A stretch of 60,651 bases of DNA, filler included, from Globobulimina sp. (lineage: Eukaryota), in NCBI GenBank assembly GCA_003354225.1. It is 13 parts of 13 records of this genome, joined end to end, with 100 filler letters (N's around TTAATTAATTAA, not from the genome) between each part and the next. Parts side by side here need not be neighbours in the genome. Positions count along the whole stretch, not along the records: positions 32,730 to 37,301 come from PIVH01001106.1; 12 more parts are not named here. One strand, given 5' to 3'. Position numbers and translations under genes: made by a program. Below the pieces are notes generated by a model. The model was given only the letters and a program-made list of their open reading frames with translations, did not search any database and was not told the origin of the DNA. This document shows, in pieces, positions 1 to 60,651 of this stretch. Within the stretch, counting starts at the first letter, position 1, and the number at the start of each line of letters is the position of its first letter.

Positions 1-128
1 TAATCAGAGAATGAGAGTGTTGGCCTTCTCAGAAATTGCAGTAATCAGAGAATGAGAGTGTTGGCCTTCTCAGAAATTGCAGTAATCAGAGAATGAGAGT
101 GTTGGCATTCTCAGAAATTGCAGTAATC
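1..128. repeat. 41-bp tandem repeat, 3 copies plus 5 bp
   Basis: Unit TAATCAGAGAATGAGAGTGTTGGC(C/A)TTCTCAGAAATTGCAG starts at 1, 42 and 83, with a partial copy at 124. It covers the stop-codon region of the IFT56 remnant and lies at a contig edge. Confidence 0.95.
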
Positions 129-9082: not shown

Positions 9083-9258
9083 CCTAAATAGTTGTCGCGC
9101 AACTATTTAGTTGCTTTTTCAGTACAAAAACGAAAATGGGCAACTATTTAGTTGCTATTCCAATCTAAAAACGAAAATGAGCAACTATTTAGTTGCTTTT
9201 TCAGACCAAAAACGAAAATTGGCAACTATTTAGTTACTATTTAGCAACTATTTAGGCA
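9083..9258. repeat. Array of 41-bp units with palindromic core GCAACTA-TT-TAGTTGC, bounded by 12-bp inverted repeats (MITE/minisatellite-like)
   Basis: Cores at 9099, 9140, 9181 and 9222. CCTAAATAGTTG (9083-9094) is the reverse complement of CAACTATTTAGG (9245-9256). Confidence 0.9.
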
Positions 9259-32729: not shown

Positions 32730-33910
32730 AATTGCTGCATAGATGACACATTTTGCGGTTGCTGCTGATTATTTCTTTGCAATTGATTCAATAACGATAT
32801 TAATTGCGATGCTTGGCTCGGACCTAAACCGCTGATTTGAATATTATCAAAATTTGTATTGGTTGCGGTATTGGTATCAGTAATGGAATGTGTATTTGGA
32901 TGCGTACTGGGATTCGTATCCGAGTGTGTATTCATATGCGTACTGGGCGTACTCTCTCCGAATTCCTGCCCATATATTCCCGGTATTACTCCTCGGAACT
33001 CCGCACTCTGCGTATTCTCCGAGCTAGGCACCGTCTGTGTCTTTGCTTCTTCAATGGTTACTCGCCTATTTGTGGTAGATGCAGTATCTTGTGCTCTGGT
33101 TGCAGGATTTGTGGTAGTTGCAGGAGTTGTGGTAGTTGCAGTACTTCGCGCTCTGGTATTTGCATCTGCGACACTGGTTGTTTGCATATTTGGTGGTTTC
33201 AAGACATTAACCTGACGCTGCAAACCTGCTTGTATACCGCCACAAATCTCCATTGCAATCTTGGCCAACTCAGTTTTAGTGATCAACGCACTCACTTTGG
33301 GGTACAAGATATCACCCATTGTACTGGTCACAATATCCAATGTGCTCAAAACAATGACAATATTCCACAAGATTTCACCACAAATCTTCCTCAAATCAAC
33401 AAATAAAGCTATTTCCCTCTCATTCAAATTCCATTCATTCAATTTTAAATAATCAATATCATTAAATGATTTATTTGGTAATGCTGGATCATGTTTTATT
33501 CTTACTAATTTTATTTTAATTTTAACTCTAACATCAACTATAATTTGTTTAAAGAATTGGATCGTATCGGGATTCAACGTACTTATCGCCGTTGTTAATA
33601 ATATCGCAAATATGGTCACCAGTCTCTGCTGTTTTTGGTACGGATTGTTACCAATATCATCCGTGTATTGCGCCAATTTAGCAAAGCATTTATCTCTCAC
33701 TTCATTCGGAATGATAACTAAAAAGGCTGAAGACCATTTATTTATGGCATTATCATCATTCACCTTTTCCTTCCTGAACTCAACCGCATTAAAATACCCT
33801 CTGCAGACACACACTGCGTTATATATTAAATCATTTGCTATCTTTTTTGACAGATTACTTTGCATATTTTTATATGATGCTTCATTTATTTTTGTTATTG
33901 ATTGCAACAT
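32730..33910 (-). CDS. Unknown ORF downstream of the recombinase (candidate gag-like or cargo ORF), 3'-incomplete
   Basis: ATG at 33910 (MLQSITK). Helical N-terminal part, then a Thr/Asn/Gln-rich disordered region. No introns. Confidence 0.7.
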
Positions 33911-34403
33911 TCTGTACTTATATTTGTGATTTATTTGTTTATTTTTATTATGTATTCGTTTTGCAACTGTTTGCTTTTTGTTTGTAACTCCGCACCTTTC
34001 GTAACTCAATTTTTATTTTAACTTTTCTTATGTCTTGTTACGACGACTTATTCTGGCACTCGTTACTTGCACTATCTCCCCTGACGTTTAGTAGGGTAAA
34101 GAAAAGTTTTCAAACAAACAGTAATCAAACACCACACTCAAAAACACTTTTCACACAACAATAACAGAAACACTTTCATCTCAATTCAATGAAACCTCCG
34201 TTATAAAGTAACAATCTGTTTTATTTATGAATTATCGATGTGGACAAAATATTAAATTTGTTTAATTTAATTTAATTTATTATTTGTTCAACCAAACAAA
34301 TAATCATATCCTAAATAATACAATTCAGGAATTATCCATATCGCACAATAAATAATAATTAGAACTAAATTCATTAATCATTATCCAGATCGTAATTCAT
34401 ATT

Positions 34404-35705
34404 TTAATCATTAATATTATCTTTTGTTAATTGCTCCTTGTAATCTTTAAGAAACTGCATTGATATCACTGTCGATTTATCATTCGGCAAATTCTGCACC
34501 AATTTGCATTCTGCCATGTCTAAATCTATCAACTCTCTATTTATTTTATCACCATACAAATAGGTAAATGCCAAACCAAACATTTCCTTTTGTGTATGTA
34601 TAATATAATCATCTATGGCTGCCAATAACTTCCATCTGCCAGCAAATGCAATAATACTCCTTAGCACACCTTTTTGGGTTAAGGTTGTTGCGAATCCTTT
34701 ACGCAATCCATGGAATCTATATTTATCCCCTTCAATAAATCCCAACACTGCAATCAATCCTTTCCAATGTCGTTTTACTGCAGTTAGTGTCCAGTCTATT
34801 TGGGGAGTCTGGAACAAAAAACGCTTTCTTAATTTATATTTATAAATTCTTCTTAAATTATATCTCTGTATATTATATATATGATATATCATCACAACGG
34901 GGTCAATTTGGCGATGCGTTCGCCCCATTCTCAGAAAGACATCTTGTCCCTTCTGTGCGGACTTTGAATGTCTAAGCCTGATTCGAAGATGATGCAAGGA
35001 ACTGAAAGCCTGCGAATATCTATTACTCTCATACAGCTTTTTTGTTTGTGCATCTCTCCAAAAGAATGCAATGTCTGATAAATAAATTCCATATCCTTCA
35101 TAATTTTTATCTTTATTTTCATAGCATTCCGCTCCTCTTAATCCTAACATGCCTACAAATAAAATCGATATGGCATAGCAATACCAAAATAGTCTATTTT
35201 TGTCAATCCATATTTTTGGAAATGACAACCAATTCGATTTATTTCTTCTTTCTTCATCACTTAAAAAATTTAAACCATAATATACTTTAAAATTCAATAT
35301 ATGCCTAACCACCGCCAAAACCGTTTCTACCGTTGCTGGCAATGTATCGCATCCTTTCCCCGGATTGCGTTTCTTCACATATTTCAATATTGCTTCAATC
35401 GATGGGTTCTCCGACCACGAAGATTTTATACCACATAGCTGAGCGACGAAATCAATCGCTCTCATTTTGCCTCTTATCGTGCCATAACAATTCTTTCTTT
35501 TCCTAATAAAGCAACAATTTATAATATATATTTGCAAAATCGCATCATTGATTGGGAAATCCCAGACCCATTTATCCGGTATCTTCAATCTCCTCATCGT
35601 TCTCCAAAATTCAAGGAAGTTATCTTGATACGTTCCTTCCGACGTTGGTTTGACACCGCCATTTTGAGTCATCATTAATATATCTCGATATATTGATGGT
35701 ACCAA
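34404..35705 (-). CDS. Tyrosine recombinase (DIRS-type integrase)
   Basis: Complete catalytic set: R (GLRGAE), K (RHSKS), HxxR (FHGLRKGFAT), GRW and Y (DDYI). N-terminal core-binding segment (TIRGKMRAIDF...NPSIEAILK). Confidence 0.92.
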   Translation of the reverse strand: MVPSIYRDILMMTQNGGVKPTSEGTYQDNFLEFWRTMRRLKIPDKWVWDFPINDAILQIYIINCCFIRKRKNCYGTIRGKMRAIDFVAQLCGIKSSWSENPSIEAILKYVKKRNPGKGCDTLPATVETVLAVVRHILNFKVYYGLNFLSDEERRNKSNWLSFPKIWIDKNRLFWYCYAISILFVGMLGLRGAECYENKDKNYEGYGIYLSDIAFFWRDAQTKKLYESNRYSQAFSSLHHLRIRLRHSKSAQKGQDVFLRMGRTHRQIDPVVMIYHIYNIQRYNLRRIYKYKLRKRFLFQTPQIDWTLTAVKRHWKGLIAVLGFIEGDKYRFHGLRKGFATTLTQKGVLRSIIAFAGRWKLLAAIDDYIIHTQKEMFGLAFTYLYGDKINRELIDLDMAECKLVQNLPNDKSTVISMQFLKDYKEQLTKDNIND

Positions 35706-35932
35706 ATCGAATAACGGACTTCCAAACTTTCTCTTCCTTACTAAAGTTTTTTAGCAATAAAAATGTGAGTTTTACGCCCCCTTAGTAAAGGACGAAGGAT
35801 GGCACCTTCAGTTTCGACGCAAAGTATATTGTCTTAATGCCTGTATAGACACTTATTGTTTCACAAATTAATCACATAAACATTTATATTTGCATATATA
35901 ACATATCATTGTACGTATTCTTTATTATAAAA

Positions 35933-37301
35933 TCACCATTGATGAATATTTGGGAATTTAAATGGTGAAGAGAATGATTGCAAATTCCAATTATTTTTAT
36001 TGCATACTTTCATAGCTAATTTACTAAACTCATTCATATCAAATCTAGAGGCCAGATCTGGCAATTTATTTAATTTTGTATTGACATAATTAATATAAAC
36101 TTGCATATCATTATTAATGCACCACATACATATCCATCGTAAACATGATTGTAAAAACTCATCACTTGCATTCTTTTCAAGCAATACTGACTCAACGTGG
36201 CGATTATCAGTTTTTAATAACAATTTGGTATTTGGATGAAATAAATGTTTGAATGTACTCAAACCAACGACAATTGCAATCATTTCAAAGTGCGCGATTG
36301 CAAATTCCTTTTCATATTCCTCTCTGTACGAAATAAACACATTTGTATACTGCTTCGGTACTGGACTCGAAATCCAGTGTCCTTTATAAAATATACCTAT
36401 TGCTGGACACCAACCTGTTAAACGCGACCCATTCGTCGCACCATCAAAGTGAATTATATCTGTTGGCATTTCTGTATCTGCCAAATCAATGATTGATGCC
36501 ACTGCTACAATATCAATATACTGACCCCACCACCAAAAGTCTTTCAATTCCCATGGAAATAACTCAATTACCACATTTTTTCTGCCATACTTCTCAATGC
36601 ATTCATACAATCTCACTCTCAGACGTCTCAAGAACGCTTTTCCGGGCCATTTCAGATTGGCCACATCCTGCAATTTGCCAATCAAAGATTCATATTCATC
36701 CAACATAATAACTTCATGCAACAGAGCACCATATAATAACTGTTTGATTTTATTCAGTTTCACGTCCGATATTGCAATGGTCATATTGTACGAATCAATG
36801 ATAAAACCAATTATTTCCAACATCGTCAATGGACCTCTTCGTTTCTTTGGTAATTCATCTAATCCTAAGATTTGCAAATATTTACAGAAATTGCTAAATA
36901 TATCCTTAGCAACGCATAAAATTGGTGGCAAAAATAGTATATAATCATCAATATAATTGTTCAATATTAATTTTAAAATATGTTTTGAATTTAATTTTAA
37001 AACTATTAATTTTGCGAAGAATCCCGCATTTTTCAACATATTAAATTCAATAAATGATATTTCCATATTCATCATATCTGTATTAGCTGACATTAATTTT
37101 AATCCATTATAGAAATGTTTCAAAACTATCTTTTTTACGCTCATCAAATCATTCTCATCGCACCATCTCTCCACCAAATCATCATTCCATTTATATACTA
37201 ATTTCTGTTCATAAATATATTGAAAATCCATTATATTTTCATTATTTAATTCATTAATAAATCTCTTATAAAAATAAACAACATTATTTTTTTCTAATAT
37301 C
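35933..37301 (-). CDS. Reverse transcriptase (C-terminal part) plus RNase H, 5'-incomplete
   Basis: YIDD at 36944-36955, LG...KK and IIGFIIDS RT motifs, SLIGKL. RNase H D-E-D-D residues in HFDGA, HFEMIAI, KTDN and NKLPDLASR. Frame is open to the contig edge. Confidence 0.92.
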
Positions 37302-46745: not shown

Positions 46746-49558
46746 AAAAAGAAACCAAAAAGGAACCCACAAAAAAAAAGGAACCGCCAAAGCCTAAAAA
46801 GAAAAAAAAAGACAAAGGTCCGCGGCGGGCCTCGTTGGGCGATGCCATCAAAGACGGCGCCAAAAAAGAGACCGAAAATAAAAATATCAAGTTCAAAAAC
46901 AGAGGCAAACCCACCAAAATAAGCACAAATACAGAAACCGCACATTCGAGCAGTTCTGATAGCGACGAACGCAAAAAAAAGAAAAAAAAACCGCCACCGG
47001 GCAACGACCGGCGGGGCAGGGACACCTCGGACGAATTGGCAGTGTACAAAAATAAGATCAACGCCCGTACTCGCAAACGCATTGCGCGCCACCAACGCCA
47101 CGAAACGCCGCAGTACGACATCGCCACCAAAGACCTACTAAAGCAAGAATACGAAGCCGCGTTCAGTGGGGACGATGACCGCATACTCGTTGCCAATGAA
47201 GTGCTCTCCGAAGACGCAGAAGAAGACGACAAAACACCCGTCACTCCTAACCCTCGCGGCCACGGCCTGCGATCTTACAGAAAGCAGCAAGTCGAGATCA
47301 GTGATCGTGATCGTGACAAAAAACACAAACCGCCGCCTTCCAAAAAGAAAACCACCGCCACCCCTACGCCCAATAAAAACACGCGTCAATTTAAAAAACG
47401 CCGCGACAGGGAACCAGAGAAAAAGAGCAAGTCATTCGCGGTGAAGAAGATAGGCAAGAAACCCCTCAAAGGCAGCAAACCCAAACCGGAGCCCGTACAC
47501 CGGCACAAAAGTGCGCGTAAACGACGCAATGAGGACAGTGGATGGAGGAAGGAGTCGGTGGATGAGGATAGCGATACGGAGAGTGATTCGGATACGGACA
47601 GTGATAGCGACTCGAGCGAGTACACAGAGTCCACCGAGTATGAGACTGGCAGCACCGACTCGAGCGAGTATACAGAGTCCACGGGCTCTGATGATAGCGG
47701 CACCACAGCGACGGAGTCCACGGGAAGCACTGAGACTGGCTCGGAGTATACGGACGATACGGACTACGAATCCGGCGATACGGATACGGGCAGCAGCACG
47801 AGCGGGGACAGTGAGAGTGACAGCCGTACGCAGAGCCGCAGTCGCGAGCGGAGCAGAGGCAAAAAACCAAAGGCTAAGTTGAAACCTAAAACGAAGCCGA
47901 AGCCGCGGAAAAGCGACGCGATTTATGACGCGATCATAGCTGATATGCGCAAGAAATCGAGCAGGGAGGACGTGGACGACTGGAATAAGAAAAAAGCGCA
48001 TCAGATATTGAAGGATAAGAAATCGATACATAAGGATAAGGATAAGAAGTCAATCAAGAAAAACAAGGATAAGGACAAGGAGAGTCAGAGGGACAAAGAG
48101 AAGGAAAAAGCGAAGAAGAAAGCGGACGAAGCGGCCGCTGCGAAGTTGAAGAAAAAGAGGGAAAAAGAAAAGGAGCGCAAACGCAAAGAGAAAGAGAAGG
48201 AGGCGGCGGAGAAAAAGGAGCGTGAACGTGAACGCGAGAAAAAGCGCAAATTGGAGGCGGAGAAGGAAAAGGAACGCAAACGCAAAGAGGCCAAGCAGCA
48301 GCAATTGAAGTTGGAGGCGGAGCGCAAACAGAAAGAAAAGGAAAAGGCGGAGCGGGAAAGGAAGCGCAAGCAAGAAGAGAATGAGTATGACGACGAGGAC
48401 GAGCACGAAGAAGTGACGGATGAGGAGGAAGAGGACAGTTCCTCCGAAGAGGAGGACAGCAGCGACGAGGACTCGTTGCAGAGCAACAGCGACGATGAGC
48501 AGGAGGCCATTGACGACGCTATGAAAGCTTACGTCGAACTGAACAACGACACCACGGCGGTGCTGCACGAAGGCGACGAGCACAAAGAATGGGAGCGGTT
48601 GGAGGCGGCCAAGCGGCTGCAAAACAAGCACAAGCGCAAAAGCACCGAGCTGTGGAAGTGGAACACGCAGCAACTGATCGCGGAGGAGAACGACGACCCG
48701 ACCGCCAACCGCGAGGAGCTGGGCAAGATCTGGATGAAGTTGCGCAGCATTCCCAAGTCGTCGCGCAAGGACAGCCGCGAGACGCGCATCGTGAAAGAAT
48801 TCATGATGTTCCAACTGAACCACGACCACAGCATCAACGACCACTACATCATCATCGAGAACATGAACTATCCCAACATCTATCAATGGAACGGCCAGTT
48901 CATCGGTCCCATGGGCACGCCGTACGTCAACGGCAAGTACCGCATCATCATCAAGTTCGGCAAGGATTACCCGAGCAAGCCGCCCAAGATCACGTTTCTG
49001 ACCAAGATCTATAACTCGTCGGTCAAGCACAACAAGCGCAAAAAGCGCGGCCTGTTGAAGTTGCCCAAGTTCTTCGACCGCATTTGGAGTAAGAAAATCT
49101 CGCTGCGGCAGTGGATGAACGTGGTGTACGAGTTCCTGTTCTTTTACTGCGGCGATCACTTCTTCGATCCCATGAACCAGAGAGTTGCGCGGGAATTTAT
49201 CTTTGCGTTTGATTCGTTTATCGATACGTGCTATCAATGGAACTTGATCTTTGCCGATGGCTATGAGGGCAGCAGCAATATGTTGCAGTTGCATGACGAG
49301 TATGGCGAGCGGCAAAAGTTGACGTTCCACTGCGCGAAGTACAGCAATCAGTATGACATTCATGAATATAATGTGCTGAAGGAGATAATTTGGCAGATTA
49401 TGCGGCAGAAATATAAGTCGACGTACGGTGCGTTTCTGGTGTTGTTGGACTATTTTGGCAATGAGTTCTATTATTGCGGCCTGTCGGAGTTGATACGGGA
49501 GCCGCATATTTGCGTCAAGCATAAAGTGAAACGGTACGATAATATCATAGAATGGTGA
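46746..49558 (+). CDS. Large low-complexity protein with a C-terminal inactive UBC/UEV domain, 5'-incomplete
   Basis: W...IGPMGTPYVNGKY...FGKDYPSKPPKITFLTKIY is an E2 fold. HPN is replaced by NSS and the catalytic Cys position reads GLLKL. Preceded by S/T/D/E-rich and K/E/R-rich tracts. Confidence 0.85.
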
Positions 49559-49990
49559 GATGTTTGTAGTGTTTGCTTCATTTGTGGGTTTTTTTATATT
49601 TATTGTTCGATTCAATGTTTTTTTGGTTATATTTTTTTTCTCTGTCACTTTTTTTTTTATATTTCATTTCCTTCATTCAGTTTCATACACAGGTTTTGTT
49701 TGTTCTTTTTTGATATTTTTTTGATGTTATATATTTTTTGTTGTTTTGTATGATGATATCATATCATGTTGACATTGTTATGTTTGTTTTTTTTCAAGAT
49801 GTTTTTTCTTTTAATATAAATCTTAAAAGCCTTTTTAAAAAGTTTGCAAATATTTCAAAAAGAAAAATTATTAGTTATCCTTTGGAATATATCGTTGAGG
49901 CATTGCTTACTTTTGGATCGTTTCTGAATTGTTATTCAACAGTGACTTACATAGCTATAAATGCTATTATTTGAGGAATTTATTTTTAAA

Positions 49991-56083: not shown

Positions 56084-59000
56084 CTCGAGGCATCCCATAC
56101 AAACAAAGAGGATTCCAAATTAATCCTATTGCCATACAATGATTCGCCTTGCAATGTAATGCCCGTTGATGGTGCCGTAAATTCCAATGTATGGCCAACA
56201 AATAAATGAAAATCGTTGTTTTGAGTTTGAGCGAGATCCGTCGATCGATTTAATATTATTGGAATATCAAATGTAATATTCGATGTTGTATGATTTGCAG
56301 AAATAGTGACTGGTAATGAATTGATGAAAATGTTATTATTCATTGTATTGTTGGTTTTCAATGCAATATTACCGTTTATACCATACGTCAAAATGTTTAC
56401 ATTTTTATTTATATTTAAATTGCCTGAATTAAATATAAATGTTAAATAACCACTCGATGTAACAATATTTTCATTTATTATAATTCCATTTTCTCCATTG
56501 ATTTCAATATAGCTCGTTGTGGCAGAATCGAATATTGTTGCATTCTCACTAAACGTAATGGAGGATTGTTCCGATGACAATTTGATATATCCACCAGCGA
56601 CACCATCCATATCTACTGTTTGTTGCAAACCAGACACATAAATATCTCCATAATATGATAAAAACTCAATGGATGTGCAATATAATGATGATAATTCTGA
56701 GTTTAATAAGCTTAATGAATATATATTGTTATCGGATGGCGCTGCAACACCGCCAATTGCCATTGAATATGACGATGAACATGTTTCTGCCATTATAATT
56801 TTCGATGACGAGGCATTTATATATGATGAACTGTTGTAATTATCAATGATTAAATCACCGCCATAATATATTATTTGCGCGCCATTAATTGTTGCTATAG
56901 ATGTCGATGCAGAGAGATATAACATACCTGTGCTATTTTGGCAATCTTGATTGGTTTGCAAAAATAAATTGCCATTTGATGACGATGAATTTAATAAAAT
57001 GCTGGATGATGATGCCAATGTAATATTTGCTAAAGAGATGAAATTTACATATATTGAATTAAATATTAAGATGGATGACTCCGTTATGGATATCTGCGAA
57101 GCATAAATGTATAATGACGAAGCAAACAGTGATGATACGCTGATATTATTAATATATGCATTTGAAATGGTATTCGTTTTCAATGCATTTGTGCTAAAAT
57201 AATCACCTAAATATATTGTTGCATTATTATTTGTCAAAATTGTATTTAATTGCGAATTGGAAATTGAATAATTGTCCAAAATCTTATCTTGTCCTCCTAT
57301 ATAAATATCACATGAGCCATTTTCACCATCATCGCATGTGGGATGTAACCAAATAATGTCAGCGTCTGCCGATTCTGCGCTTGTATCAATTGTACACGTT
57401 GAGGTATCCCAAATTATATTTTTGGATTCTAAATTGATTGTAGCTCCTGATCCATTATTGTTTGATGCGCCATATAATTGAATCCCTGCTGATGGCGATT
57501 GGCACGATAATATATTACCAACATACATAGAAAATTCGCAATGTGAATGAGAGTCACGTTTTATTTTAATTGCCTCGATTGCATTGAGCGTAATATTTGA
57601 TGTTGAATGGGATGCAGCAATTCTTGTTGGTAATGTATTGATTAATACAGCGCCCGCACTATTATTTGAAATGAAGAAAATCTCTCCATCCACACCATTC
57701 GTAGTGATATGTATATTGGATTTATTTCTTGTGCTGTTACCAATGTTTAAATTGCCATTCATAAAATTGAAGGATAATATACCATTCTGATTGCTTATAT
57801 TTTTGTTGATGACGATGCCATAATCACCATATATTTGAACACCACCATTTGTATTTGCTGAAAATGAAGTAATCTCATCATCAAATTCAACCATACCGTG
57901 TTGTGAAGTAATCTCAATTTTGCCATTTAAAATACCAGCCATGTCATTTAATTGTACAAAACCAGCAACGAAGATATTACCAAATAAAGACTCAAATATA
58001 ATATTCTTGCTAAATAATAATGATAACTCACGACGTAATATTCTCATCTTATATTTATTGTTATCAGTCGGAATTTCATTATCGCCACCAATCAAAAATG
58101 AATTTGTCGTTGAACACCTTTCCGAAATTAACACGTTGGATTGTGATGAATTTATATGTGTGCTTTGCGAATTATTGCCTAATAATTGTAAATCACCGCC
58201 GTAATATGTAATTGACGTATTGCCAGATGTTTGAATGGAGCAAGCATCACATATTTGCAATGTAGCATTGATGGCATCATCACAATTATAATCTGTATGG
58301 AAGAATAAATTATTATTATTGCCATTTAAATAAATGGAGGAACCAGAATCAATAAATAGAATATCAGCCAATGCAATGAGATTAATATTCATATAATTAA
58401 ATATTATTGATTGGCCGCCATATATTACACATTTTGTATTTGAAAGAAAATATATATTTTTAGCAATTGATGCGAACAAATTTATATAACCACCCATATA
58501 AATTGAAGCATTTCTATTCATATCACCAATTTTTATTGTTGCTTTGGATGATGTGTTGATTATATTTAATGCATCTGACGATATCGAATAATTGTTATTG
58601 TGGTTAATGTTTGTGCCATTTCCTACATATATGTCACACTCATCACATGATGGATGCAACCAAATAATATCATTCTCTGTTGCTTGCAATGTAGTATCAA
58701 TTTTACAGCTTGAAACATCAAATGCTAAATGTGCTGATTCTAAATTGATTGTTGCGCCATAATTCATTGTCCAATTACCAGTGCCAGTGCCACCTTGTAA
58801 CAAGATACCAGTTGATGGTGACGTGAATTCTAAGTTATTACCGACAAATATCTGAAATTCTTCATGTGCTGAGACCGATCGATTTATAATAATGGGTATT
58901 GAGAATGTAATATTTGATGTCGAATCTGGTGCTGTTAATTTGAATGGTAATTGTTGAATAATTAATGATCGGTTATTGCCATTGTTTGTAATAAAATGTA

Positions 59001-60651
59001 TGTTACCATTCAAACCATTTGAGGCAATATTCACATTTGATGCAGCAATAAACATATCACTTGAAATAAATGTAAATGAGATTTGATCATCGAGGTTTGT
59101 GATATTTGTATACACATAAATACCATTATAACCATTGATATTTACGCCACCATTTGTGTTTTGTGAAAATACAGTTTCGGCATCATCAAAAATAATATAT
59201 TGTGTTGAACTTATAATATCAATCTGTCCCTCTCCAATACCATACATATCCGTTGATTGATCAAAACCGGACATAAATATTAAACCTGAATGCGAATTAA
59301 ATATCACATTTTTGCTGTATAATGATGATAATTCTGATTGCAATAAGTTTAAGCTATATGTATTATTATCCGATGGCCGAGTAACACCACCAATTGCCAT
59401 TGAATAATTTCTTGAACATCTTTCTGAAATTTCAAGCGTTGCTTGTGATGCATTTATATGTCCGCCAACATCTATTGATAGATCACCACCATAATACTTT
59501 ATATTTGGACCACCACTCGTTATTATCCTGCTTTTATTGGCTATTATCATCAATGCACCATTTCCATTTCCATTTACACCATATAAACAATCGAAATTTG
59601 TGTGCAAAAATAAATTATTTGTAGAGTCGCCATTTAATGTTAATGACGAATTGTATTTAAAAATCATATTTTGGCGTGAAATCAAATTTAAATTTACAAA
59701 ATTAAATATTGTGGATGTTGATTGGTGCAAAATTATGTTACGATTTGAAATAATGTTGATTTCGGATCCAATGTAAGATAATAGGGAAATATCATAAATA
59801 TTTATTATATCAATATCCATCAAGTTGCGCGCATCACTGCCACCAAAATATAATACTGCGCTTGATGACGAATTAATATTATTTAATTCTGCATTGGTTA
59901 TTGTAAAATTATTATTTCTATGATTTATATTGCCACCAACATTCATAATACATACTGCTACATCATCACAGATTGGATGCAACCAAATAACATCCAATTC
60001 TGTATTATTTAATGTTGTATCTATGCCACACGACGCCGCTAATGTAATAAAGGATGATTGCAAATTAATTGTACCACCATATGCTGACGAACCATACAAT
60101 TGAATGCCAGTGGATGGCGACTGACATTCTAAACTATTGCCACTATAAAATAAAAATTCTCCATGTAATAAAGGTGAACGCTGTAATAAAATTGGTATTG
60201 CAAATGTTATATTTGAGCTCAAATCAGAGGCCATAATGCCAGCCGGCAATGAATGGATTATGATGGAATTATTATTGCCATTATCATCAAATATTATATT
60301 GCCATCAATGCCATCGTTCCTAATATACACGGAGGGCGATGTAAACACCATGTCATTGTCCAAAAAATGGAAAGCCAACGTCCCATTTAAATTTGTGATG
60401 TTCTTATCGATGTAAATACCATTCCGAGCAATAATTTGCACGCCATCGTTATTGCCGGATAAGTGCACCGCATTTTCGTTAAACTCAATGAATTGATTGC
60501 TTCCATTTGCTGTTGCTGCACGGATTTGGACATAACCATTTTGAATACCATCCATATGCTGCGATTGCACAAAGCCAGAGATGTGAATAGAGCCATTGTT
60601 GGAATTGAATATTAAATTCTTGCCATATAAGGTGGATAACTCCGATTGCAC
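56084..60651 (-). CDS. Internal part of a giant secreted-type repeat protein (~435-444-aa units, beta-helix/adhesin-like)
   Basis: Intronless ORF over the whole contig. The xxELSxL motif recurs at about 60648, 59340, 58035 and 56703. Each full unit carries IWLHP.C, TxxDC, YYGGDL and E.CS. Rich in N/S/I/G with many NxS/T sequons. Confidence 0.88.

What the first reader, a model, noticed from the sequence alone, without database searches (positions are those of the whole stretch)
32730..37301. Intact-looking tyrosine-recombinase retrotransposon with atypical organisation (RT/RH - gap - YR - gap - third ORF)
Seen: three uninterrupted, intronless, co-oriented ORFs. The visible RT (YIDD), RNase H (DEDD) and YR (R-K-HxxR-W-Y) catalytic residues are all present. 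No methyltransferase domain follows RNase H, and YR is separated from RT/RH by about 227 nt. Known: DIRS-order elements integrate a circular cDNA through YR; DIRS/PAT carry an MT domain, Ngaro lack it, and gag normally comes first. Inference: a recently active, probably undescribed Ngaro-like lineage in a protist. This is the best candidate for a new system in the window.
Basis: partly seen in the sequence, partly recalled or inferred. Interest (0 to 1): 0.8.

Follow-up and report, generated by a model that had tools for sequence, protein, structure and literature searches.

The report
Ngaro-type retrotransposon with SAM-bearing polymerase
This is a cut fragment of a known kind of jumping gene whose odd gene order comes from reading across its own end repeat, but its family has two unusual traits: a protein-interaction (SAM) domain inside the copying enzyme and signs that its genes are expressed by RNA splicing from one shared first exon.

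Summary
The three open frames and the catalytic residues are real, but the stretch is one whole 4,572-nt contig cut at both ends, not an intact element. Other copies in the genome show an Ngaro-type layout: A1 - ORF-A - ORF-B (zinc knuckle) - RT/RNase H - YR - B1 - A2 - C-rich linker - B2, no methyltransferase, ends in AAC. The 'third ORF' is ORF-A, the first (gag-like) gene; the contig reads YR-B-A-ORF-A across repeat A, most likely an assembly shortcut (tandem copy or circle not excluded). So the 'atypical organisation' is not supported. I found neither trait in five paper searches. The scan has noted both traits before on other pieces of this same genome.

The parts
36965..37301 (-). 3' part of the ~110-aa insert between RT motif B and motif C, cut by the contig end; SAM-like stretch from about 37189 to 36995
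   Evidence: B-to-C distance 141-191 residues against 28-48 without insert; SAM
35933..36964 (-). rest of RT (YIDD at 36955, thumb/tether) and RNase H (D-E-D-D); stop; no methyltransferase
35741..35742 (-). putative 3' splice site (AG, phase 1) at which YR conservation begins; in-frame stop four codons upstream, first Met 22 codons downstream
   Evidence: same site in 22 of 22 YR 5' ends listed
34404..35740 (-). tyrosine recombinase, R-K-HxxR-W-Y complete
34218..34332 (-). repeat B (about 115 nt), 3' terminal repeat; ends in AAC
   Evidence: same stretch follows the C-rich linker and runs into unrelated DNA in L052, L091
34097..34220 (-). repeat A (about 124 nt), 5' terminal repeat; shares the AAC core (34218-34220) with B
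   Evidence: preceded by unrelated DNA in 9 contigs; followed by linker and B in L052 and in run X1
32730..33910 (-). ORF-A, the first (gag-like) coding exon of the element, ATG at 33910, cut by the contig end before its donor site
   Evidence: (119-nt exact overlaps with L028 and L029, which go on to ORF-B)

Best explanation
The contig is a two-ended fragment of a split-direct-repeat (Ngaro-type) tyrosine-recombinase retrotransposon, unit about 7.3-8.5 kb: A1 - ORF-A - ORF-B - RT(SAM)/RNase H - YR - B1 - A2 - linker - B2. Shown: repeats, order, ends, catalytic residues, SAM insert. Inferred from the established model for such elements: RNA is reverse-transcribed, ends are rebuilt by A/A and B/B pairing, a circle with a B|A junction is made and YR recombines its AAC core with an AAC in the chromosome. 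Inferred here (about 0.7): the window's order YR-B-A-ORF-A arises because the assembler passed from B1 through the ~120-nt repeat A into what follows A1. Inferred (about 0.8): RT and YR are reached through splice acceptors; (about 0.6): all three acceptors (ORF-B, RT, YR) take the one phase-1 donor at the end of ORF-A, giving A-B (Gag), A-RT/RH and A-YR, so the shared A part carries both enzymes into the particle, with unspliced RNA kept as genome. Inferred (about 0.5): the SAM domain, on a surface loop of the palm, oligomerises RT or tethers it to a partner in the particle.
For: Order ORF-A, ORF-B, RT, YR in L021, L084, L085 and parts of it in L023, L024, L029, L030. Whole 3' end B1-A2-linker-B2 in L062 (B copies 123 nt, 99.2%, then TAAAAC into a SPRY-domain gene), L085 (B 113 nt 99.1%, A 313 nt 96.8%) and L095. 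For the window's own subfamily: linker-B-foreign DNA in L052 and L091; foreign DNA-A in 9 contigs, 7 of 9 ending in AAC; a contig of run X1 joins 34336 to 34098 through an 18-nt C-rich linker (X1 may be the source sample). Assembly overlaps are 119 nt, about the length of A and B; both possible shortcuts occur: YR-B-A-ORF-A in 10 other contigs and YR-B-foreign DNA in at least 6 (read by eye). SAM: RT profile against PDB gave 34 hits, 31 at profile positions 274-384 (the insert), best SARM1 SAM construct E 6.6e-6, liprin-beta1 5.9e-5; Atlas structure search 7 of 7 rows from SAM proteins, TM 0.48-0.52; profile-profile with 12 host SAM domains prob 65%, E 6e-5, three control regions under 1%; 24 of 82 rows with the insert form one side of a branch, SH-aLRT 100, tree built without the insert; dN/dS 0.20-0.49 in the insert, 0.03-0.13 in the rest of RT (5 of 6 pairs, one saturated). 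Splice signals: phase-1 AG at one site in 22 of 22 YR 5' ends, under four different codons (ATA, ACA, AAA, TTA), 11 of 22 with no in-frame Met before the first conserved motif; 11 of 11 ORF-B starts; 10 of 10 RT starts that were covered (by eye); GT at the ORF-A end in 17 of 18 matches, GTATGT in 13; background for phase-1 AG 236 of 3176 codon boundaries.
Against: No single contig holds the window's own copy from end to end; the layout is pieced from relatives at 66-97% DNA identity. No read spans repeat A (one search gave only short contigs), so tandem copies or circles are not excluded; L095 even reads B2 into A again. Pfam finds no SAM over its cut-off in any of 11 inserts scanned singly, and the insert-only profile ranked nucleoside diphosphate kinase second (E 0.025) between SAM hits; Atlas scores were under its naming bar. 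Copies are related, so 22 of 22 is not 22 independent events. Acceptors of the window's subgroup are A-rich upstream and some are AAG, unlike textbook acceptors. One of 18 ORF-A ends has no donor and two have frameshifts before it. No exon-joined copy in 18 matches, and no long A-YR fusion protein among 3380 candidates (weak test). The tree is the quick one, without bootstrap or named Ngaro/PAT references.
Confidence: 0.8

Rival explanations
1. The order YR-B-A-ORF-A is real DNA: a head-to-tail tandem copy or an extrachromosomal circle, made by A1/A2 recombination (like a one-LTR circle) or as a replication intermediate. The element is still Ngaro-type and ORF-A still the first gene.
For: Three contigs close into full circles with 119-nt terminal overlap (L021, L081, L086); ten other contigs read the same way; solo A-linker-B (L052) is the other product expected of A1/A2 recombination, and solo AB repeats are reported for Cafeteria Ngaros (PMC8547959, passages).
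Against: The opposite shortcut (YR-B-foreign DNA without A2-B2) is also common, and both are what a k of about 120 does to 115-124-nt repeats; one circular contig (L021) has a broken RT and a YR lacking its catalytic W and Y, unlike an active intermediate.
Confidence: 0.25
2. One reading: a new layout RT/RH - YR - third ORF, with the third ORF a cargo or a displaced gag at the 3' end.
For: The order is what this contig and several others show.
Against: Element ends map between YR and the third ORF: foreign DNA joins A upstream of ORF-A and joins B downstream of YR; complete relatives have ORF-A first (L084 between host genes, L085 with both repeat pairs); ORF-A goes on to a zinc-knuckle ORF-B and then RT.
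Confidence: 0.03
3. RT and YR are reached by splicing, but not from ORF-A: each has its own small upstream exon or promoter in the 150-1100-nt gaps, and the ORF-A donor serves ORF-B only; or they start at downstream or non-ATG codons.
For: The gaps are long and variable enough to hold promoters and micro-exons; 11 of 22 YR frames have a Met somewhere before the first motif; no fusion protein found.
Against: All three acceptors share the phase of the one conserved donor; I saw no conserved donor at the ends of ORF-B or RT (by eye); 22-26 conserved codons lie between the YR acceptor and any Met.
Confidence: 0.35
4. The RT insert is not a SAM domain but an unrelated helical bundle, or an in-frame intron.
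For: Single-sequence Pfam scans miss it; TM scores near 0.5.
Against: Profile hit E 6.6e-6 with 31 of 34 PDB hits on that stretch; invariant W, W, G across 21 sequences down to 30% identity; dN/dS below 0.5, which an intron would not show.
Confidence: 0.08

Closest known systems
Ngaro-like retrotransposons (order DIRS), e.g. those of Cafeteria burkhardae (PMC8547959, passages read) and fungi (PMC3783388, passages read)
   Same: A1-ORFs-B1A2B2 split direct repeats; order gag, RT/RNase H, YR; HxxR and Tyr in YR; no methyltransferase; solo AB remnants; 6-8 kb.
   Different: SAM domain inside the RT palm; gag split into two frames with donor and acceptor; RT and YR without their own start, behind same-phase acceptors; non-overlapping frames with long gaps. 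Clustering with named Ngaro sequences was not tested.
PAT-like elements (order DIRS)
   Same: Split direct repeats, YR, short trinucleotide core at the ends (trinucleotide model as cited in PMC7192593, passage read).
   Different: PAT and DIRS carry a methylase domain (PMC7192593, passage); this family has none.
VIPER/TATE of kinetoplastids (PMC6681497, passages read)
   Same: Split direct repeats, tandem copies and assembly trouble at the ends, short A2-B2 remnants (SIRE).
   Different: YR precedes RT/RH in VIPER (order recalled); here YR follows RNase H.
Foamy viruses and Ty1/copia elements that make pol or gag from spliced RNA (PMC5294762, PMC5580714: search listing only; mechanism recalled)
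   Same: Splicing, not frameshifting, sets the ratio of structural and enzymatic proteins while unspliced RNA is the genome.
   Different: They use DDE integrase and LTRs; a shared coding exon spliced to three acceptors is inferred here, not known there.

Membership tests
Ngaro-like | Split direct repeats A1...B1-A2-B2 | tested here: met
   L062, L085, L095 whole 3' ends; linker junction for the window's subfamily. Not within the window contig itself.
Ngaro-like | Order gag - RT/RNase H - YR | tested here: met
   L021, L084, L085
Ngaro-like | No methyltransferase after RNase H | tested here: met
   RT frames stop about 40 residues after the last RNase H Asp in 17 of 17 aligned rows; no Dam hit in Pfam
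Ngaro-like | YR with HxxR and catalytic Tyr | tested here: met
   invariant in 11 of 11
Ngaro-like | RT/RH clusters with described Ngaro elements | not testable with these tools
   No named reference elements were available; of 10 outgroup proteins looked up, 1 had a name (an uncharacterised hemichordate protein). The family sits on its own branch among 82 unnamed DIRS-order-like RTs.
Ngaro-like | Gag-like ORF1 with Cys/His zinc-binding motifs | tested here: inconclusive
   ORF-B of relatives has a CCHC-like knuckle and a C-terminal Cys/His cluster (motif names recalled); ORF-A matches nothing in Pfam, PDB or the Atlas
PAT-like | Methyltransferase domain | tested here: not met
DIRS-like | Inverted terminal repeats with internal complementary region | tested here: not met
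   self-comparisons of long copies show direct, not inverted, terminal repeats
VIPER-like | YR between gag and RT/RH (recalled) | tested here: not met
   YR follows RNase H in all long copies and in L122-L124
SAM (sterile alpha motif) domain | Profile or fold match over the five-helix unit | tested here: met
   PDB profile E 6.6e-6 over 79 positions; Atlas structure 7 of 7 rows; Pfam cut-off not reached by single sequences

The most novel reading that the evidence does not exclude
A deep, unnamed clade of YR retrotransposons that builds Gag, Gag-RT and Gag-YR by splicing one shared coding exon to three acceptors, and whose RT has captured a host SAM domain into its catalytic palm to polymerise or anchor RT inside the particle; YR-B-A-ORF-A contigs may in part be real circular forms.
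Probability: 0.45. Interest if true: 0.8.

Novelty: new variant of a known kind. Interest (0 to 1): 0.58.

Why it matters
How DIRS-order elements make and package RT and YR is open; a one-donor, three-acceptor plan is a sharp prediction that one RT-PCR can test. A folded interaction domain kept inside an RT palm across a whole clade shows a tolerant site in the enzyme and points to an assembly step not known for these elements.

Tried and rejected
(1) After I read the family as having no terminal repeats (unit-length, circle or tandem only); overturned this when the A-linker-B junction turned up. (2) Sequencing runs: no RNA holder listed. Depths are higher over A and B but are no copy numbers and were not used; X2 and X3 hold next to nothing of the stretch. 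(3) No AlphaFold model could be made here, so no fold search of my own model. (4) ORF-A: no hit in Pfam, Atlas or PDB (best E 0.12). (5) Search for long A-YR fusion proteins: none among 3380 candidates, a weak test. (6) Look-ups of 20 homologous RTs gave one name, so hosts of the relatives are unknown. (7) Host group: neighbours are eukaryotic genes; a look at ubiquitin junctions gave one divergent junction with an extra Ala (L120), which I recall as a foraminiferan trait; too thin to name the group. (8) A host-SAM HMM from 12 domains against 147 RTs gave only weak hits (best iE 6e-4, on the insert of P0040), so no donor gene was found. (9) Pattern search for linker-B found 1 match. (10) Paper searches listed no paper on a SAM domain in a retrotransposon RT or on splicing in Ngaro elements; I read listings only for these, and subscription papers, Repbase entries and supplements were not seen. 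(11) The careful tree did not finish; the quick tree is cited. Of 147 RT rows 121 passed the length filter and 82 were used.
Full report
What the stretch is. The window is 13 unplaced contigs joined by 100-nt linkers. The finding is exactly one of them, G000:C1106, 4,572 nt. On the minus strand it has three stop-free frames. The first begins at the contig end inside RT: motifs A and B are missing only because the contig is cut, as complete copies show. YIDD, the four RNase H acidic residues and the YR residues R, K, HxxR, W, Y are there. The third frame starts with an ATG at 33910 and runs off the other end.

The family and its true order. The own genome gave 48 DNA matches at 66-100% and 86 YR matches, in two groups (about 50-93% and about 30% YR identity). 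Long copies read ORF-A (the 'third ORF'), ORF-B (CCHC-like knuckle and a C-terminal Cys/His cluster; motif names recalled), RT/RNase H, YR (L021, L084, L085). L028 and L029 overlap the contig's end by 119 identical bases and go on into ORF-B. The ends of the element map between YR and ORF-A: nine contigs join foreign DNA to repeat A (34097-34220), 7 of 9 through AAC, and B (34218-34332) runs into foreign DNA after TAAAAC. I first took this as an element without terminal repeats; L052 then showed A, a C-rich linker, B and foreign DNA, and L062, L085 and L095 hold B1-A2-linker-B2 in one piece, with B copies 99.1-99.4% alike and, in L085, A copies 96.8% alike. A contig of run X1 makes the same A-linker-B joint on the window's own coordinates (34336 to 34098, 18 letters between; X1 may be the source sample). 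This is the A1-ORFs-B1A2B2 plan of Ngaro elements (PMC8547959 and PMC3783388, passages read); PAT and DIRS carry a methylase (PMC7192593, passage), absent here.

Why the contig shows the odd order. Overlaps in this assembly are 119 nt, the length of A and B. A shortcut through A gives YR-B-A-ORF-A (this contig and 10 others, by eye; three contigs close into circles); a shortcut through B gives YR-B-foreign DNA (at least 6 contigs). Both occur, so I put about 0.7 on an assembly effect. Recombination between A1 and A2 would give the same reading as a circle or tandem copy, and no read across A was available, so that stays open at about 0.25-0.3. Either way ORF-A is the first gene, and the proposed new layout falls.

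A SAM domain inside RT. Between motif B and YxDD, group I copies and most close outside relatives have 141-191 residues, against 28-48 in the others. Ten outside homologues came from the protein search and more from the representative search (245 proteins at E 1e-30 or better, best 150 listed). A profile of 21 whole RTs hit 34 PDB sequences at E up to 5; 31 match the insert (positions 274-384), led by SARM1 SAM constructs (E 6.6e-6) and liprin-beta1, two match Ty3 RNase H and one is a nanobody (that the unnamed chains are SAM domains is recalled). The Atlas model of P0006 gave 7 of 7 rows from SAM proteins for that stretch, TM about 0.5, under its naming bar. Profile comparison with 12 host SAM domains gave probability 65%, E 6e-5, controls under 1%. 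Against: single inserts do not reach Pfam's SAM cut-off (0 of 11). In a tree built without the insert, the 24 insert rows of 82 form one side of a branch (SH-aLRT 100, quick tree), next to the insert-less group II: one old gain. The insert is under purifying selection, weaker than the rest of RT (dN/dS 0.20-0.49 against 0.03-0.13). The host genome has at least 150 SAM_1 matches, so capture from a host gene is plausible but no donor was found. Three metagenome loci of 38-48% GC show RT(insert)/RH followed by YR. The window holds the SAM part from about 37189 to 36995. Function is inferred: SAM domains self-associate or bind RNA (recalled); oligomerising or anchoring RT in the particle is my best guess, about 0.5.

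Splice signals. In 22 of 22 YR 5' ends listed, conservation begins right after an AG in phase 1, kept under four codons; in-frame stops lie just upstream in several, and 11 of 22 have no Met before the first conserved motif. In the window the site is 35741-35742, four codons after a stop and 22 codons before the first Met. The same phase-1 AG opens ORF-B (11 of 11) and RT (10 of 10 covered, by eye); background is 7.4%, and copies are not independent. ORF-A has the only clear start and ends in a donor-like site of the same phase, GT in 17 of 18 and GTATGT in 13, also in group II. The simplest reading is one exon spliced to three acceptors, giving A-B, A-RT/RH and A-YR; I give 0.8 to splicing into RT and YR and 0.6 to the shared donor. 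It is not shown: no RNA run was listed, no exon-joined copy (0 of 18) and no fusion protein turned up, and the acceptors of this subgroup are A-rich.

Activity. Open frames under selection in many copies, near-identical B repeats and an insertion ending inside a SPRY-domain gene point to fairly recent movement in the family; other copies are broken (L021). The age of this copy cannot be read, since it has only one A and one B.

What is known. Paper searches listed nothing on a SAM domain in a retrotransposon RT or on spliced expression in Ngaro elements (listings only; open-access library). I reached both readings before looking at the scan's notes on this genome; those notes show both were recorded many times on other pieces of the same genome, which is not independent support. 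One note says a predicted splice was seen in transcript-like data; I could not check that.

Verdict. A fragment of an Ngaro-type element; the unusual order is not a feature of the element; the family is a new variant of a known kind because of the SAM-bearing RT (well supported) and the probable spliced expression (untested in RNA). Interest 0.58.

Noticed in passing
window 1-60651: The window is 13 separate contigs of about 4.57 kb joined by N44-TTAATTAATTAA-N44 linkers; neighbours across linkers are not real neighbours.
   Followed up: yes
L046, L047, L053, L055, L056, L054, L057, L090: Short remnants of repeat A or of the last 30-55 nt of repeat B lie alone in host DNA; L090 and L016 share the same downstream flank, one with only a 32-nt B stub, the other with YR-B.
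   Followed up: partly
L084, L085, L086, L087, L092 (G000:C21, C110, C163, C1139, C3362): A second, distant group of the family without the SAM insert but with the same donor and acceptors; L092 has ORF-B joined to the YR C-terminus with RT deleted.
   Followed up: partly
L062:11-610; L084:39-1106; L070:2562-3479: Host genes at element ends: a SPRY-domain gene cut at the B2 end, a leishmanolysin/EGF gene and an RRM gene.
   Followed up: partly
L098 (G000:C2039): A YR fragment lies beside an ORF pair ending in an endonuclease of the Exo_endo_phos_2 family, probably a non-LTR retrotransposon.
   Followed up: no
window 1-128 and 9099-9242: Two different 41-nt tandem repeats, each at a contig end.
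   Followed up: no
window 46746-49663: GC-rich contig part (53-55% against about 32%) with a long charged, repetitive frame ending in a ubiquitin-conjugating domain; possibly another organism or a compositional outlier.
   Followed up: no
window 56084-60651: Repeats at about 1.3-kb spacing, 62-88% alike, suggesting a large repetitive protein gene on the minus strand.
   Followed up: no
G000, genome-wide: At least 150 SAM_1 matches from 456 candidates and many ubiquitin-fusion genes.
   Followed up: partly
L124:1-268; L123:894-1080: Metagenome relatives have short tandem duplications (about 130 and 120 nt period) upstream of RT.
   Followed up: no
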